Source of the DNA: a virus
Taxonomy: Duplodnaviria; Heunggongvirae; Uroviricota; Caudoviricetes
Virus record (IMG/VR): IMGVR_UViG_2778261226_000006
Reading direction: 5' to 3' (one strand)
DNA: 38,474 bases
Part shown: piece after piece, positions 1-35,854 of the stretch
Numbering within the stretch: position 1 is the stretch's first letter
How the letters are laid out: each line of letters starts with the position of its first letter
The notes under the pieces: generated by a model
Databases searched by the model: none
The model's input: the letters and a program-made list of their open reading frames with translations, nothing else
What the model was told of the DNA's origin: nothing
Translations under genes and position numbers: made by a program

Positions 1-1053
1 TTACGGGGTAATGCCAACCGCTGCCGCCACTTTGTCGCCACTTGGCAGCGTTGCCAGAGGATTGAAACGGAGCGCCGTTTCCAGATGATCTGGTGCCAGA
101 TGTGCGTAACGCATAGTCATTTTTATATCGTGGTGTCCGAGAATTTTTTGTAAGGCGAGAATGTTTCCACCCGACATCATGAAGTGCGCCGCAAATGTAT
201 GGCGCAGAACGTGTGTGAGTTGACCGCGAGGGAGCACGATAGACGTTTTTTCCATCACGGATAAAAATTGAAAATAGCAGTCTGTAAAGAAATTGAACCC
301 ATCAAGCGCCATGATCTCTTCGTAAAGCTCTTTACTGATAGGGATGCTTCTGTTTTTCTTCCCCTTCGTTCTGACAAAGGTAATTCGGTATTTGGTCACC
401 TGTGAGCGGGTAAGATTTACGGCTTCACGCCAGCGTGCGCCTGTGCTTAAGCATATCTTAACTACCAGTGCCAGAATCGGGTCCTGACGTTTACAATCAG
501 CCAGCAATTCAACAATCTGCTCATGGGTAAGCCATGCCATCTCTTTTTCTGCGATGGTGAATTTTCGCATGTTCTCCAGTGGGTTCGGATACGACCATTC
601 GCCCAGGCGGGATAGTTCGCTAAAAACACTACTTAGATAGCTTTGCTCCAGGTTAATGGTGACCGGGCTTGCTCCTTTCTTCCATTTCTCGCTGAAGTAG
701 ATCTCACCTGTCAGGCGTTTATCTCGATAGTGGGCAAACATTTTAGAGGTGAGATCGGTTGCTAGGGGATTGCCCAGAGCGTCAACCATCAACAGCAATT
801 TATCATAGACATGCTGCCCAGCGGTTAGAGATTTACCATGTAGTTTGAACCATAGCTCAACCACGTCTTTCAGTGTTCGACGATCCACTGATTCTCCCAG
901 CCAGGGCTTTGCTTCGGTTTCTTCCATCGTATGGCGCTCAAAAGCCAGAGCTTCGCCTTTGGTGGCGAATTGTTTACGCACACGACGCCCACTACGTCCG
1001 GCGGGGTAACATTCGCAAAGCCATTTTCCTGTGGTGAGTTTTCGTACTGCCAT
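1..1053 (-). CDS. int: Tyrosine integrase (P2/186 Int family)
   Basis: Tyrosine-recombinase catalytic motifs are present: ...GARWREA..., HVLRHTFA, LGHHDIKMTMRYAHL. The N-terminus MAVRKLTTGKW... resembles P2-like Int. I start at Met27 of the ORF-track entry (ATG 1053). The stop codon TAA is at 1-3. Confidence 0.93.
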   Translation of the reverse strand: MAVRKLTTGKWLCECYPAGRSGRRVRKQFATKGEALAFERHTMEETEAKPWLGESVDRRTLKDVVELWFKLHGKSLTAGQHVYDKLLLMVDALGNPLATDLTSKMFAHYRDKRLTGEIYFSEKWKKGASPVTINLEQSYLSSVFSELSRLGEWSYPNPLENMRKFTIAEKEMAWLTHEQIVELLADCKRQDPILALVVKICLSTGARWREAVNLTRSQVTKYRITFVRTKGKKNRSIPISKELYEEIMALDGFNFFTDCYFQFLSVMEKTSIVLPRGQLTHVLRHTFAAHFMMSGGNILALQKILGHHDIKMTMRYAHLAPDHLETALRFNPLATLPSGDKVAAAVGITP

Positions 1054-33156: not shown

Positions 33157-33638
33157 TGATGGTGCTGGGATTGTACGTGTTTATGCTGCGCACCGTTCCG
33201 TATCAGGAACTGCAGTATCAACGCAGCTGGCGACATGCGGCAAACAGTCGGGTAAACCGACGTCCGTCCACGCAGTTTCTGGGACCGGAAAACGACATGT
33301 TGACGCTTTCCGGTGTTCTTATGCCGGAAATAACAGGCGGCAGGCTGTCGTTGCTGGCACTGGAGCAGATGGCAGAACAGGGGAAAGCATGGCCCCTGAT
33401 TGAAGGCAGCGGCACGATTTACGGAATGTATGTGATTGAGGGACTGAATCAGACTAAAACGGAGTTTTTCCGCGACGGTATGCCGCGCCGAATTGAGTTC
33501 ACCCTGTCGCTCAAACGAGTGGATGAATCCCTGTCCGATATGTTCGGTGATCTCAGTGCGCAACTGAATAATCTGCAGGACACGGCAACGTCTGCCTTAA
33601 GCGATATCAGTAAAACGGTGGGAGGGCTGCTGTCGTGA
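33153..33638 (+). CDS. U: Tail protein U
   Basis: 161 aa beginning MMMVLGLYVFMLRTVPYQELQYQRSWRH..., the gpU family. Confidence 0.88.
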   Translation: MMMVLGLYVFMLRTVPYQELQYQRSWRHAANSRVNRRPSTQFLGPENDMLTLSGVLMPEITGGRLSLLALEQMAEQGKAWPLIEGSGTIYGMYVIEGLNQTKTEFFRDGMPRRIEFTLSLKRVDESLSDMFGDLSAQLNNLQDTATSALSDISKTVGGLLS

Positions 33639-34735
33639 ATTTCAGCTCTGAACTGCTTAACAAAGGCAACAAAACTCCCGCATTCAGCATCAGTATTGAG
33701 GGCAGGGATATCACCACTGTGCTGGATAACCGCCTGATGAGTTTGACGCTGACGGATAACCGGGGCTTTGAAGCGGACCAGCTTGATCTGGAGCTGGATG
33801 ACGCTGACGGAAAAATCGTGCTGCCGCGCCGTGGTGCGGTTATTACGCTGGCGCTGGGCTGGAAGGGGCAGCCGCTTTTCCCGAAAGGGGCATTCACAGT
33901 GGACGAGATTGAACACACTGGCGCACCGGACCGCCTGACTATCCGGGCGCGAAGTGCTGATTTTCGGGAAACGCTGAATACCCGCCGTGAAAAGTCGTGG
34001 CACAAGACCACGGTCGGGGAAGTGGTGAAGGAAATAGCCGCGCGGCACAAACTGAAGATGGCACTGGCTAAAGACTTGTCGGATAAACCCGTGGAGCATA
34101 TAGACCAGACTAATGAGAGTGACGGCAGTTTTTTGATGCGGCTGGCGCGCCAGTACGGTGCTATTGCGTCGGTGAAAAATGGCAATCTGTTATTCATCCG
34201 GCAGGGACAGGGTAAAAGTGCCAGCGGTAAACCACTACCGGTGATCACTATCACACGTAAGGATGGCGACAGTCACCGCTTTACCCTGGCAGATCGCGGA
34301 GCCTATACGGGCGTAATTGCCAGTTGGTTGCATACCCGCGAACCCGCGAAGAAAGAAAGCACAACGGTGAAGCGTAAGCGCAGGACTAAGAATCGGAAGA
34401 AAGAGCCGGAAGCGAAGCAGGGCGATTACCTGGTGGGTACGGATGAAAACGTGCTGGTACTTAATCGCACTTATGCCAACCGGAGCAACGCTGAACGGGC
34501 AGCGAAAATGCAGTGGGAACGCCTGCAACGCGGCGTTGCGTCATTCTCGCTACAACTGGCGGAAGGTCGGGCAGATCTCTACACGGAAATGCCAGTGAAA
34601 GTCAGTGGCTTTAAACAGCCGATAGATGATGCGGAATGGACTATTACCACCCTGACGCATACTGTCAGCCCGGATAACGGTTTTACGACCAGTCTGGAGC
34701 TTGAAGTGAAGATTGATGATTTCGAAATGGAATGA
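33635..34735 (+). CDS. D: Tail/late control protein D
   Basis: 366 aa, gpD family (…RVMSLTLTDNRGFEADQLDLELDD…). Confidence 0.9.
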   Translation: MNFSSELLNKGNKTPAFSISIEGRDITTVLDNRLMSLTLTDNRGFEADQLDLELDDADGKIVLPRRGAVITLALGWKGQPLFPKGAFTVDEIEHTGAPDRLTIRARSADFRETLNTRREKSWHKTTVGEVVKEIAARHKLKMALAKDLSDKPVEHIDQTNESDGSFLMRLARQYGAIASVKNGNLLFIRQGQGKSASGKPLPVITITRKDGDSHRFTLADRGAYTGVIASWLHTREPAKKESTTVKRKRRTKNRKKEPEAKQGDYLVGTDENVLVLNRTYANRSNAERAAKMQWERLQRGVASFSLQLAEGRADLYTEMPVKVSGFKQPIDDAEWTITTLTHTVSPDNGFTTSLELEVKIDDFEME

Positions 34736-34825: not shown

Positions 34826-35044
34826 ATGATGATTTGCCCACTGTGTGGAAGTGCCGCCCATACTCGCAGCAGTTTTCAGGTATCTTCATTGACCAAAGAG
34901 CGTTACAACCAGTGCCAGAACATTAACTGCAGCCATACTTTTGTTACCCATGAAACTTTTGTTCGTTCGATTGCAACGCCAAAAGAGTCAAATCCGGTTC
35001 AGCCGCATCCAATGAAATCAGGACAGGTGGCGCTCTCTCTTTGA
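34826..35044 (+). CDS. ogr: Late gene transcriptional activator (Ogr / 186 B family zinc finger)
   Basis: MMICPLCGSAAHTRSS...KERYNQCQNINCSHTF parallels P2 Ogr (CPLC...KERYHQCQNVNCSATF). Confidence 0.88.
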   Translation: MMICPLCGSAAHTRSSFQVSSLTKERYNQCQNINCSHTFVTHETFVRSIATPKESNPVQPHPMKSGQVALSL

Positions 35045-35045
35045 C

Positions 35046-35059
35046 TCTGCCGCCATTTT
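35046..35059 (+). repeat. 14-bp direct repeat copy 1 (TCTGCCGCCATTTT)
   Basis: Exact repeat of 35621-35634. It begins 2 nt after the ogr stop. Confidence 0.7.
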
Positions 35060-35112
35060 TTCACCATTGCTAAAAACAGTGATTCTAAAAATCATTGTTT
35101 TCGAATAAGTGC

Positions 35113-35604
35113 CTAGCATCCGATAAGGTCGTTTGCTTCAAACTTTGGCAAATGATACTCATTTGCCAAATGTTCGTTATCTTTGTTATTTTTTAAATAT
35201 TTGTATTTTAATGTATTTTTATCTTCATTGTATGATAATAAAGCTTCCCCGATAGGAACATCACGCCACCCTATTTGAATGCAAAGAAGGATAGTGACCT
35301 GCCCTTTATGGTTTAGCTTACCCGAGAATGTAAAGGTGCATTTCTCTTCATCAAGGCTTGTTGATGAACAGTTAGTGATAGTCCCTGCCAAATTGCCGAC
35401 GACATCTGATGACTCAATTTTTATGCTTATTATATTCTCATTATGGTTGCGAATATCACCAACATTGTTCCAGTTTTTTGAGACTAGAAGCTCAATAATT
35501 CTTTTTTTCTTAAGGCGTTTTACTTCCTTTGCCTGTGGTGAGTATAAGAGGTATGCGGGTATGCCTGCTACAATTGCCAGCACAGCTAATATAATGGTAA
35601 CCAT
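35113..35604 (-). CDS. AT-rich single-pass membrane protein (163 aa), unknown function
   Basis: AAGGA lies 6 nt before ATG 35604. The N-terminal TM is VTIILAVLAIVAGIPAYLLY and the C-terminal part is beta-rich. It is bracketed by 14-bp direct repeats. Confidence 0.65.
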   Translation of the reverse strand: MVTIILAVLAIVAGIPAYLLYSPQAKEVKRLKKKRIIELLVSKNWNNVGDIRNHNENIISIKIESSDVVGNLAGTITNCSSTSLDEEKCTFTFSGKLNHKGQVTILLCIQIGWRDVPIGEALLSYNEDKNTLKYKYLKNNKDNEHLANEYHLPKFEANDLIGC

Positions 35605-35620
35605 CTGAAGTCCTTGTTCT

Positions 35621-35634
35621 TCTGCCGCCATTTT
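35621..35634 (+). repeat. 14-bp direct repeat copy 2 (TCTGCCGCCATTTT)
   Basis: Exact repeat of 35046-35059. Confidence 0.7.
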
Positions 35635-35699
35635 GCCGCCAAAGATAAGTAAAGTAGTTTCTAACTTATTGATTATGGAATGGAAGAATAGCAGGCAAC

Positions 35700-35742
35700 A
35701 AAAAACCCATCAACCTTGAACCGAAATGGCGGGGTTGATGGG
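35700..35742 (-). terminator. Rho-independent terminator of ybjL
   Basis: On the minus strand: CCCATCAAC-loop-GTTGATGGG followed by TTTTTT. Confidence 0.7.
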
Positions 35743-35854
35743 CTCCACAAAATGGGGACATCAAAGAAAAGCAGTGGCACTAATTAAGACTGATGCCCTG
35801 CGGAAAAGTTCTGCGGTTGTGCAAAAAAATTTCATTTTCAGGGCAACTTCAGTT

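What the first reader, a model, noticed from the sequence alone, without database searches (positions are those of the whole stretch)
35046..35634. AT-rich membrane-protein ORF bracketed by exact 14-bp direct repeats at the prophage right end
TCTGCCGCCATTTT occurs at 35046-35059, 2 nt after the ogr stop, and again at 35621-35634. The two copies enclose a 561-bp AT-rich segment whose only ORF is a 163-aa membrane-anchored protein on the opposite strand. An exact 14-mer repeated within 600 bp is unlikely to be chance. Three readings are possible. (a) The repeat is the att core and the segment is the remnant of a second element integrated in tandem at the regenerated att site. (b) It is a moron cassette inserted with target duplication. 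(c) The true attR is the second copy and the ORF is phage cargo between ogr and attP. The ORF's upstream in-frame ATG lies within the repeat copy.
Basis: seen in the sequence. Interest (0 to 1): 0.55.

Follow-up and report, generated by a model that had tools for sequence, protein, structure and literature searches.

The report
Duplicated integrase arm sites flanking prophage cargo
The repeated 14-mer is not the phage attachment core but a duplicated binding site for the phage integrase's "arm" domain, and the small membrane-protein gene between the copies is ordinary but uncharacterised cargo carried inside a P2/186-like phage integrated into the rybB small-RNA gene.

Summary
TCTGCCGCCATTTT occurs exactly at 35046-35059 and 35621-35634, enclosing 561 bp at 36% GC with a conserved minus-strand ORF. 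The 14-mer is not the att core. The core is AACAAAAAACCCAT (35697-35710), the last 14 nt of the host sRNA gene rybB. This follows from attL of a near-identical prophage, two empty sites, and attP of a related phage. The 14-mer contains TGCCGCCATTT, which matches the 186-type Int arm-type site consensus (tgccGCCActt) at 10 of 11 positions. Copy 2 heads the working P arm: a tandem pair with 11-bp period, an IHF-like site, and a 76-bp distance to the core that is conserved in relatives. Copy 1 heads a second, truncated and diverged P arm next to ogr. A metagenome contig carries the attP form (ogr, copy 1, ORF, copy 2, core, P', int), so the ORF is phage cargo. In complete E. coli genomes, 1105 hold the prophage without the insert, 3 hold this ORF, and 10 hold a 44%-identical homologue. 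The ORF encodes one TM helix plus an 8-stranded beta-barrel, from a tiny family with no annotation that always sits att-proximal and downstream of int. Its function is unknown; phage exclusion is a guess. Interest is modest.

The parts
1..1053 (-). Tyrosine integrase (350 aa), 186-type. Its last codons overlap the P' arm-type sites.
   Evidence: Translation. 187/351 identical to phage 186 Int, with a conserved N-terminal arm-binding region.
22..43 (+). P' arm: tandem pair of Int arm-type sites, TGCCGCCACTT and TGTCGCCACTT, with 11-bp period.
   Evidence: Motif scans. Same layout as the annotated phage 186 attP. Contiguous with the core in the attP contig L023.
34826..35044 (+). ogr (late-gene activator, 72 aa).
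   Evidence: Annotated as ogr/Delta in relatives.
35046..35059 (+). 14-mer copy 1. Contains arm-type site TGCCGCCATTT (35048-35058).
   Evidence: Consensus from PMC3448106 and the 186 record.
35046..35101 (+). Relic P arm #1. It has one intact arm-type site, a degenerate second unit (TTTCACCATTG), and about 42 nt homologous to the standard P arm. It is truncated about 20 bp before where a core would be and lies 651 bp from the real core.
   Evidence: Alignment and shuffle test (score 20-22, p<0.0005). Sequence comparisons.
35113..35631 (-). Cargo ORF (172 aa, or 163 aa from the ATG at 35604). One N-terminal TM helix, a basic linker, and a predicted cytoplasmic 8-stranded beta-barrel.
35621..35634 (+). 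14-mer copy 2. Contains arm-type site TGCCGCCATTT (35623-35633).
35621..35696 (+). Functional P arm #2. It has a tandem arm-type pair (35623-35633 and 35634-35644), an IHF-consensus match (TAACTTATTGATT, 35662-35674, minus strand), and CAGGC next to the core.
   Evidence: The 76-bp distance from arm pair to core is identical in six loci with diverged arms. 90/90 identical in the attP contig. This arm type is found only together with the ORF.
35697..35710 (+). att core AACAAAAAACCCAT (attR copy).
   Evidence: It is the only sequence shared by attL, attR, attB and attP. Klebsiella phage 4LV2017 annotates the overlapping 19-mer as attR.
35697..35775 (-). Host sRNA gene rybB. Its 3' terminator end is the att core.
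   Evidence: Rfam RF00110, 105 bits, 79/79 positions. rybB is a known P2-like integration site.

Best explanation
The window holds a P2/186-like prophage integrated into the 3' end of the sRNA gene rybB. The att core is AACAAAAAACCCAT at 35697-35710.

The repeated 14-mer is a 186-type integrase arm-type binding site. It appears twice because the phage carries two P arms in tandem. The outer arm (35621-35696) is the working one. It has a tandem pair of arm sites and an IHF-like site at the conserved 76-bp distance from the core. The inner arm (35046-35101), directly after ogr, is a truncated, diverged relic.

Between the arms lies one cargo gene (a moron) for a single-pass membrane protein with a predicted cytoplasmic beta-barrel. 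Excision happens at the core, so both arms and the gene travel with the phage.

The origin is inferred, not shown. The block 'ORF plus its own P arm' probably came from another rybB-targeting phage. One route is tandem integration at the core followed by an internal deletion. Another is one illegitimate plus one legitimate crossover. Either would join the block behind the resident phage's own P arm.

The function is also inferred and weakly supported. The gene may be a lysogen-expressed membrane effector for phage exclusion or abortive infection.
For: The core was defined from several sources: attL of VG12A2 (int end identical to window 1-68), empty sites, attP of Klebsiella phage KP12, and Rfam RybB.

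The arm-site identity rests on these points:
- It matches tgccGCCActt at 10 of 11 positions (PMC3448106) and YAYCGCCAYTY at 10 of 11 (phage 186 record).
- Tandem pairs with 11-bp period lie in both arms, as in 186.
- The distance to the core is a fixed 76 bp across diverged arms.
- Int is 53% identical to 186 Int, with a conserved N-terminus.

Two P arms are supported because both right flanks are significantly similar to the standard P arm, and the repeat extends to 35 nt at 74%.

Cargo status is shown by attP-form contig OGMB01000229.1, which reads ogr, copy 1, ORF, copy 2, core, P', int.

The census in complete E. coli genomes favours gain over loss: 1105 without the insert, 3 with it, and 10 with a homologue. 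Arm #2 occurs only with the ORF, while the P' arm and int are the standard type. The foreign block therefore ends at the core.

The gene looks real. It has 44% identity over 165 aa without gaps to the homologue in strain 98207, and the allele in other strains differs by an in-frame 12-bp indel.

Family members always lie att-proximal and co-oriented downstream of int.
Against: Int binding to either copy has not been shown; the identification rests on consensus and layout.

The inner arm is only about 80% identical to standard P arms, while the adjacent ogr is about 99% identical to that of relatives. It is therefore not simply the decayed arm of the same recent ancestor, and further mosaicism is needed.

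No donor phage with this ORF allele and a single arm was found.

Exact 14/14 identity between two otherwise diverged arms is somewhat more than site conservation predicts, since relatives vary at 3-4 of these positions.

No promoter for the ORF was detected.

Confidence: 0.8

Rival explanations
1. The 14-mer is the att core, and the segment is a second element at a regenerated att site, or copy 2 is the true attR (the literal form of reader's readings a and c).
For: The repeat brackets the segment exactly, and relatives lack one 575-bp period.
Against: attL, attB and attP share AACAAAAAACCCAT with attR and not the 14-mer. Empty sites contain no copy. The attP contig keeps both copies on the same side of the core.
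Confidence: 0.02
2. A mobile cassette inserted into a single arm site and generated a 14-bp target-site duplication.
For: Relatives without the insert have one copy. The insert is AT-rich.
Against: Sequence to the right of copy 1 is P-arm homologue for about 42 nt, so it is not foreign DNA. Sequence to the right of copy 2 is a different, 66%-identical P arm, not the recipient's own. There are no terminal inverted repeats, transposase or recombinase. A 14-bp duplication would be unusually long.
Confidence: 0.05
3. The double-arm form is ancestral, and insert-free phages arose by deletion between the two 14-mers.
For: Direct repeats favour slippage or recombination deletions, and the period matches exactly.
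Against: A deletion product would carry arm #2's right flank. All 1105 insert-free E. coli prophages sampled, and the Klebsiella phages, carry a different arm that is 66% identical. Arm #2 never occurs without the ORF.
Confidence: 0.05
4. The exact repeat is a chance coincidence with no significance.
For: About 10% of simulated windows contain an exact 14-mer pair within 600 bp.
Against: The motif matches a published binding consensus, sits at the position of the P arm in relatives, and has extended flanking similarity.
Confidence: 0.03

Closest known systems
Phage 186 attP (Int arm-type sites, IHF sites, core in a tRNA 3' end)
   Same: Tandem arm-type sites of the CGCCA type with 11-bp period lie on both sides of the core. 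An IHF site sits between the P-arm pair and the core. The B/ogr gene lies just left of the P arm and int lies right of the P' arm. The core is the 3' end of a small structured RNA gene.
   Different: The core is the rybB sRNA terminator instead of tRNA-Ile. There are two P arms in tandem with a gene between them. The P' pair lies inside the int coding sequence.
rybB-integrated P2-like prophages of E. coli (Rybb*W/B/Cr; 'hotspot #29' Felsduovirus) and Klebsiella phage 4LV2017 (Elveevirus)
   Same: Same integration site, core, int, P' arm and late genes.
   Different: These have ogr followed after 2 nt by a single P arm. The window type adds the ORF and a second arm. It is found in only 3 of 5426 complete E. 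coli genomes, one IMG/VR contig and one metagenome contig.
Phage morons and att-proximal cargo (186 orf69; the int-att hotspot of P2-like phages, PMC13586616)
   Same: A single AT-rich accessory gene at the edge of the phage genome, absent from close relatives. Distant family members sit in the orf69 position between int and att.
   Different: Here the gene is on the ogr side of attP, a position not listed among the described P2 hotspots. It has no recognisable defence domain.
S-2TM-beta effectors (Cap15 of CBASS, OptE of Panoptes)
   Different: It has one TM helix instead of two. There is no sequence similarity and no PADLOC hit. There is no neighbouring cyclase. The barrel is equally similar to avidins and designed barrels.

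Membership tests
186-type Int arm-type binding site | Matches the consensus tgccGCCActt / YAYCGCCAYTY | tested here: met
   TGCCGCCATTT matches at 10 of 11 positions against both consensus forms.
186-type Int arm-type binding site | Occurs as tandem direct repeats about one helical turn apart | tested here: met
   Copy 2: sites at 35623 and 35634. P' arm: sites at 22 and 33. Copy 1: the second unit is degenerate at 8 of 11.
186-type Int arm-type binding site | Present on both sides of the core in attP, at a fixed distance | tested here: met
   The attP contig L023 shows the arm pair, 76 bp to the core start, then the P' pair. The spacing is identical in six loci.
186-type Int arm-type binding site | Cognate integrase with a 186-type N-terminal arm-binding domain | tested here: met
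   53% identity to 186 Int. The N-terminus VRK..G.W.CE.YP..G.R.RK.FATKGEALAFE is shared, and W/E/Y occupy the discriminator spacing described in PMC3448106.
186-type Int arm-type binding site | Physically bound by Int | not testable with these tools
   Needs EMSA or footprinting.
att core (attL/attR repeat) | The same sequence is at both prophage junctions and in the empty site | tested here: not met
   The attL junction and attB carry AACAAAAAACCCAT. The 14-mer is absent from both empty sites.
Target-site duplication of a transposable insertion | The repeats directly abut foreign DNA, and the flanks equal the uninterrupted target | tested here: not met
   P-arm homology continues about 42 nt inside copy 1. 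The arm after copy 2 is only 66% identical to the insert-free arm.
Target-site duplication of a transposable insertion | The element carries terminal inverted repeats or a transposase | tested here: not met
   No bracketing inverted repeats. The only conserved ORF has no transposase or recombinase similarity.
Phage moron / accessory cargo | Lies inside the att boundaries and moves with the phage | tested here: met
   The attP-form contig contains it.
Phage moron / accessory cargo | Absent from close relatives and of deviant composition | tested here: met
   1105 genomes without it against 3 with it. 36% GC against 51%.
Phage moron / accessory cargo | Has its own promoter and terminator and is expressed in the lysogen | tested here: inconclusive
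   The scan found no minus-strand promoter. Expression cannot be tested here.
S-2TM-beta effectors (Cap15/OptE) | Two N-terminal TM helices | tested here: not met
   The AF2 model shows one long helix, residues 2-40, with one hydrophobic span.
S-2TM-beta effectors (Cap15/OptE) | C-terminal small beta-barrel | tested here: met
S-2TM-beta effectors (Cap15/OptE) | Sequence homology, and an operon with a nucleotide cyclase | tested here: not met
   No PADLOC, Pfam or NCBIfam hit. The neighbours are ogr and the att region only.

The most novel reading that the evidence does not exclude
The TM-plus-beta-barrel family may be a new stand-alone prophage membrane effector that works like Cap15/OptE without a dedicated cyclase. 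Its expression may be wired through the attachment site. In the circular phage it lies downstream of int, across attP. After integration it lies directly downstream of the sigma-E-dependent rybB gene. The Int arm-type sites sit 17-25 nt upstream of its annotated start codon in each of the four lineages examined and could act as an operator.
Probability: 0.1. Interest if true: 0.6.

Novelty: new member of a known kind. Interest (0 to 1): 0.3.

Why it matters
It corrects an att-site call. Short exact repeats near a prophage end can be integrase arm sites and not the crossover core, and a composite att region can mimic a target-site duplication.

It documents a rare, still-mobile variant of the very common rybB-targeting P2-like phages. 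This variant gained one gene together with a second P arm, a concrete example of how cargo is added next to attP.

It also flags a very small, unannotated protein family: 10 representatives among 1.84 billion. The members examined in 186-type prophages lie next to the att site. The family is a reasonable candidate for a lysogenic-conversion or phage-exclusion test.

Tried and rejected
- Pfam, PADLOC, PHROGs and NCBIfam scans of the ORF and its homologues gave only sub-threshold noise.
- A PDB sequence profile search gave only TM-helix noise.
- Foldseek against BFVD and PDB found nothing with E<=0.001. The afdb50 library was unavailable.
- tblastn of the ORF, and of homologue P0003, against deposited phages and plasmids found no match.
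- The first genome-contig scan found nothing. The ten-sequence alignment was too diverse to scan with.
- The word-indexed protein search found only the near-identical cluster.
- I looked for a donor or a deletion derivative. Arm #2 without the ORF, or the ORF without arm #1, was not found in E. coli genomes or IMG/VR. The 76% match in EC361 is just another insert-free arm.
- I considered that arm sites might bracket the cassette in other lineages too. The extra motif at L015:4908 is a lone match in GC-rich sequence and not a tandem pair, so this was rejected.
- I first read the hairpin at the core as the ybjL terminator. Rfam showed it is the RybB terminator.
- The promoter scan found no minus-strand promoter for the ORF. 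Hand-found weak -35/-10 combinations were not conserved between lineages and were dropped.

Full report
**1. Observation**

TCTGCCGCCATTTT is present exactly at 35046-35059 and 35621-35634 and nowhere else exactly. Copy 1 starts 2 nt after the last base of the ogr stop codon (ogr is 34826-35044).

The 561 bp between the copies has 36.2% GC, against 51.4% for the phage body. The minus-strand ORF 35113-35631 is 172 aa. It is 163 aa from the ATG at 35604, which follows an AAGGA Shine-Dalgarno. It is the only ORF there with homologues, although two unsupported plus-strand ORFs also exist. The upstream ATG (35629-35631) lies inside copy 2.

The repeat alone is not strong statistically. It is the only exact 14-mer pair within 600 bp in the window, but 10% of Markov-1 simulated windows have at least one such pair. 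The comparative data below make it real.

**2. Where the phage ends**

The window is a P2/186-like prophage, with int at 1-1053 (minus strand), D at 33635-34735, and ogr. It lies next to ybjL.

Almost all complete E. coli genomes (5419 of 5426) match the window only from about 35692-35697 rightwards. The near-identical prophage of strain VG12A2 has an int end identical to window 1-68. Its attL reads ...GATAAGTTTTAGAT-AACAAAAAACCCAT-TTATGTAAACGGG.... The prophage-free sites of E. coli C and ATCC 11775 read ...AACAAAAAACCCAT-CAACCTTGAACC.... Klebsiella phage KP12 has the attP form: ogr, P arm, AACAAAAAACCCAT, P' arm, int.

The only sequence common to attL, attR, attB and attP is AACAAAAAACCCAT, at window 35697-35710. 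Phage 4LV2017 annotates the overlapping 19-mer as attR. Neither empty site contains the 14-mer.

Rfam shows the core is the last 14 nt of the sRNA gene rybB (35697-35775, minus strand; 105 bits, full length). rybB is a known integration site of P2-like prophages (PMC3032704; PMC10121019).

**3. What the 14-mer is**

Nilsson et al. (PMC3448106) report that P2-like phages with 186-type integrases have arm-binding direct repeats with consensus tgccGCCActt. The phage 186 GenBank record gives YAYCGCCAYTY, with three predicted sites left and two right of attP. The motif scan found tandem pairs with 11-bp period on each side of the 186 core. The 14-mer contains TGCCGCCATTT, which matches both consensus forms at 10 of 11 positions.

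In the window the motif forms:
- a tandem pair at 35623/35634 (copy 2 plus TGCCGCCAAAG);
- a tandem pair at 22/33, inside the 3' end of int (the P' arm);
- one intact unit at 35048 followed by a degenerate unit, TTTCACCATTG (copy 1).

The distance from the start of the arm pair to the core is 76 bp in the window (copy 2). The arm pair sits at the same position in VG12A2, EC0880B, A1_181, EC361, strain 98207 and phage 4LV2017, although the sequences between are as little as 66% identical. Arm #2 also has a perfect IHF consensus (AATCAATAAGTTA on the minus strand, 35662-35674) between the arm pair and the core, as in 186.

The window Int is 53% identical to 186 Int, with a nearly identical N-terminal arm-binding segment. 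I conclude, by consensus and layout and not by binding data, that the 14-mer is an Int arm-type site.

**4. Two P arms in tandem**

The similarity between the two copies extends to 35 nt at 74%. The 62 nt to the right of each copy are both significantly similar to the single P arm of insert-free relatives. Local alignment scores are 20-22 for copy 1 and 17-18 for copy 2, against a null maximum of 16 (p<0.0005).

The structure is therefore: ogr, relic P arm #1 (35046 to about 35101), ORF (stop codon at 35113-35115), working P arm #2 (35621-35696), core. The novel joint is within about 11 bp of the ORF stop, not at the 14-mer. There are no bracketing inverted repeats and no transposase. This rules out a simple target-site duplication.

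Insert-free relatives are not deletion products. Their arm differs from arm #2 (50/76 identical). Arm #2 is found only with the ORF, in 3 genomes at 100% identity.

The P' arm and int are the standard type, with one mismatch to VG12A2 attL in KP12. The foreign block therefore runs from about 35102 to the core.

An inferred origin that fits all of this is as follows. A donor phage carrying 'ORF plus P arm' integrated at the core of a resident rybB prophage, or recombined with it at the core or in int. One illegitimate event then joined the resident's P arm, about 20 bp short of its core, to the 3' end of the ORF.

Two caveats apply. Arm #1 is only about 80% identical to standard arms although the neighbouring ogr is about 99% identical to that of relatives, so further mosaic exchange must be assumed. 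And no donor was found.

**5. The ORF is phage cargo**

I predicted the attP junction of this phage as arm #2 end, core, P' start: GGAAGAATAGCAGGCAACAAAAAACCCATTTATG. It occurs once in the metagenome collection. Contig OGMB01000229.1 (33.3 kb) reads ogr, copy 1, ORF, copy 2, arm #2, core, 74 bp of P' arm, int stop. Arm #2 plus core is 90/90 identical to the window, and the int end is 197/200 identical. Both copies and the ORF therefore lie inside the phage genome, and recombination is at the core.

Census of 5426 complete E. coli genomes:
- 1105 have the insert-free junction;
- 3 have this ORF, all with both copies;
- 10 have a 44%-identical homologue in the same ogr-to-P-arm gap, with a single arm pair.

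One IMG/VR contig has the prophage form. The window itself comes from GCA_002233375.1.

**6. The protein**

It has no Pfam, PADLOC, PHROG or NCBIfam family. HMMER against 1.84 billion representatives finds 10 proteins.

Cap15 and OptE are membrane-anchored barrels that disrupt the membrane on ligand change (PMC12657218). They have two TM helices and a partner cyclase, which are absent here. The analogy is therefore only a lead.

**7. Family context**

Homologues lie in these positions:
- the same ogr-to-P-arm gap at rybB in Huaxiibacter;
- next to an arm pair adjoining a tmRNA-3'-end core;
- between int and the P' arm pair of a close relative of this Int (L026);
- overlapping the int stop in a 186-like prophage at tRNA-Ile, the orf69 position (L024);
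- one distant member (P0010, L027) lies among phage terminase and portal genes with no integrase or att site identified nearby, so it is an exception to the att-proximal pattern.

Where an int gene or att site is visible nearby, the gene is att-proximal and co-oriented with int. In the circular phage the window ORF lies downstream of int, across attP. In the prophage it lies downstream of rybB. This fits a gene expressed with the lysogenic functions, but no promoter could be identified.

**8. Verdict**

It is wrong about the nature of the repeat.

The feature is an ordinary moron in a known phage group at a known integration site. Its unusual detail is a duplicated P arm, and its gene is uncharacterised.

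Noticed in passing
window 35697-35775 (minus strand): Full-length RybB sRNA gene. The prophage att core is its last 14 nt (terminator 3' half plus U-tract), so integration regenerates rybB in the way tRNA-targeting phages regenerate their targets. On the attL side, the phage P' sequence supplies a substitute hairpin that would terminate int transcripts.
   Followed up: yes
window 1-43: The P' arm-type pair lies inside the int coding sequence. The C-terminal tail of Int (SGDKVAAAVGITP) is encoded by its own arm-binding sites.
   Followed up: partly
L004:1824-2354, L010, L011, L022, L023 compared with window about 35560-35575: All other carriers of the ORF have an in-frame 12-bp duplication in the TM helix (IVAT-IVAG; 176 aa). 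The window allele (172 aa) lacks it. There are two further amino-acid differences.
   Followed up: no
L015:3333-4000: Composite att region in another genus, in this order: RybB, an arm pair, about 370 bp, a tmRNA 3' fragment (27 bits), a terminator, a second arm pair, and an ORF homologue. It is followed by 186-like fil, cII, apl and cI genes with no adjacent int. The origin is not understood.
   Followed up: partly
L007:400-420 (E. coli ATCC 11775 empty site): This prophage-free site has AAATTTCAGGC left of the core, identical to the core-proximal end of the phage P arm. E. coli C has AGTTTTAGAT there. It may be a scar of an earlier integration and excision, or the exchange region may be wider than 14 bp.
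   Followed up: no
L026:2-1581; L024:3973-5528: Distant family members sit on the other side of attP. One lies between a close relative of this Int and its P' arm pair. Another overlaps the int stop by 4 nt in a 186-like prophage at tRNA-Ile, the position of 186 orf69.
   Followed up: partly
window 35144-35170: A perfect 12-bp hairpin (TTTGGCAAATGA/TCATTTGCCAAA) lies inside the 3' part of the ORF and scores as terminator-like on the plus strand. It could stop ogr or late transcripts from running antisense into the ORF.
   Followed up: no
L008:4700-4900: The Huaxiibacter chinensis prophage at rybB/ybjL has an in-frame stop in ogr, so it is a decaying prophage. It keeps an intact ORF homologue and arm pair.
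   Followed up: no
P0005 (4739 aa), P0011 (1211 aa): Two very long proteins match residues about 44-90 of the ORF in 15 and 5 repeated stretches. This may be a repeated beta-hairpin motif or a compositional artefact.
   Followed up: no
L018:1-3186: In one contig the P0003 homologue is preceded by an AAA_15/AAA_21 ATPase gene and a 581-aa gene with weak Methylase_S similarity. These are defence-like neighbours, so the gene sits in a variable cargo region there.
   Followed up: no
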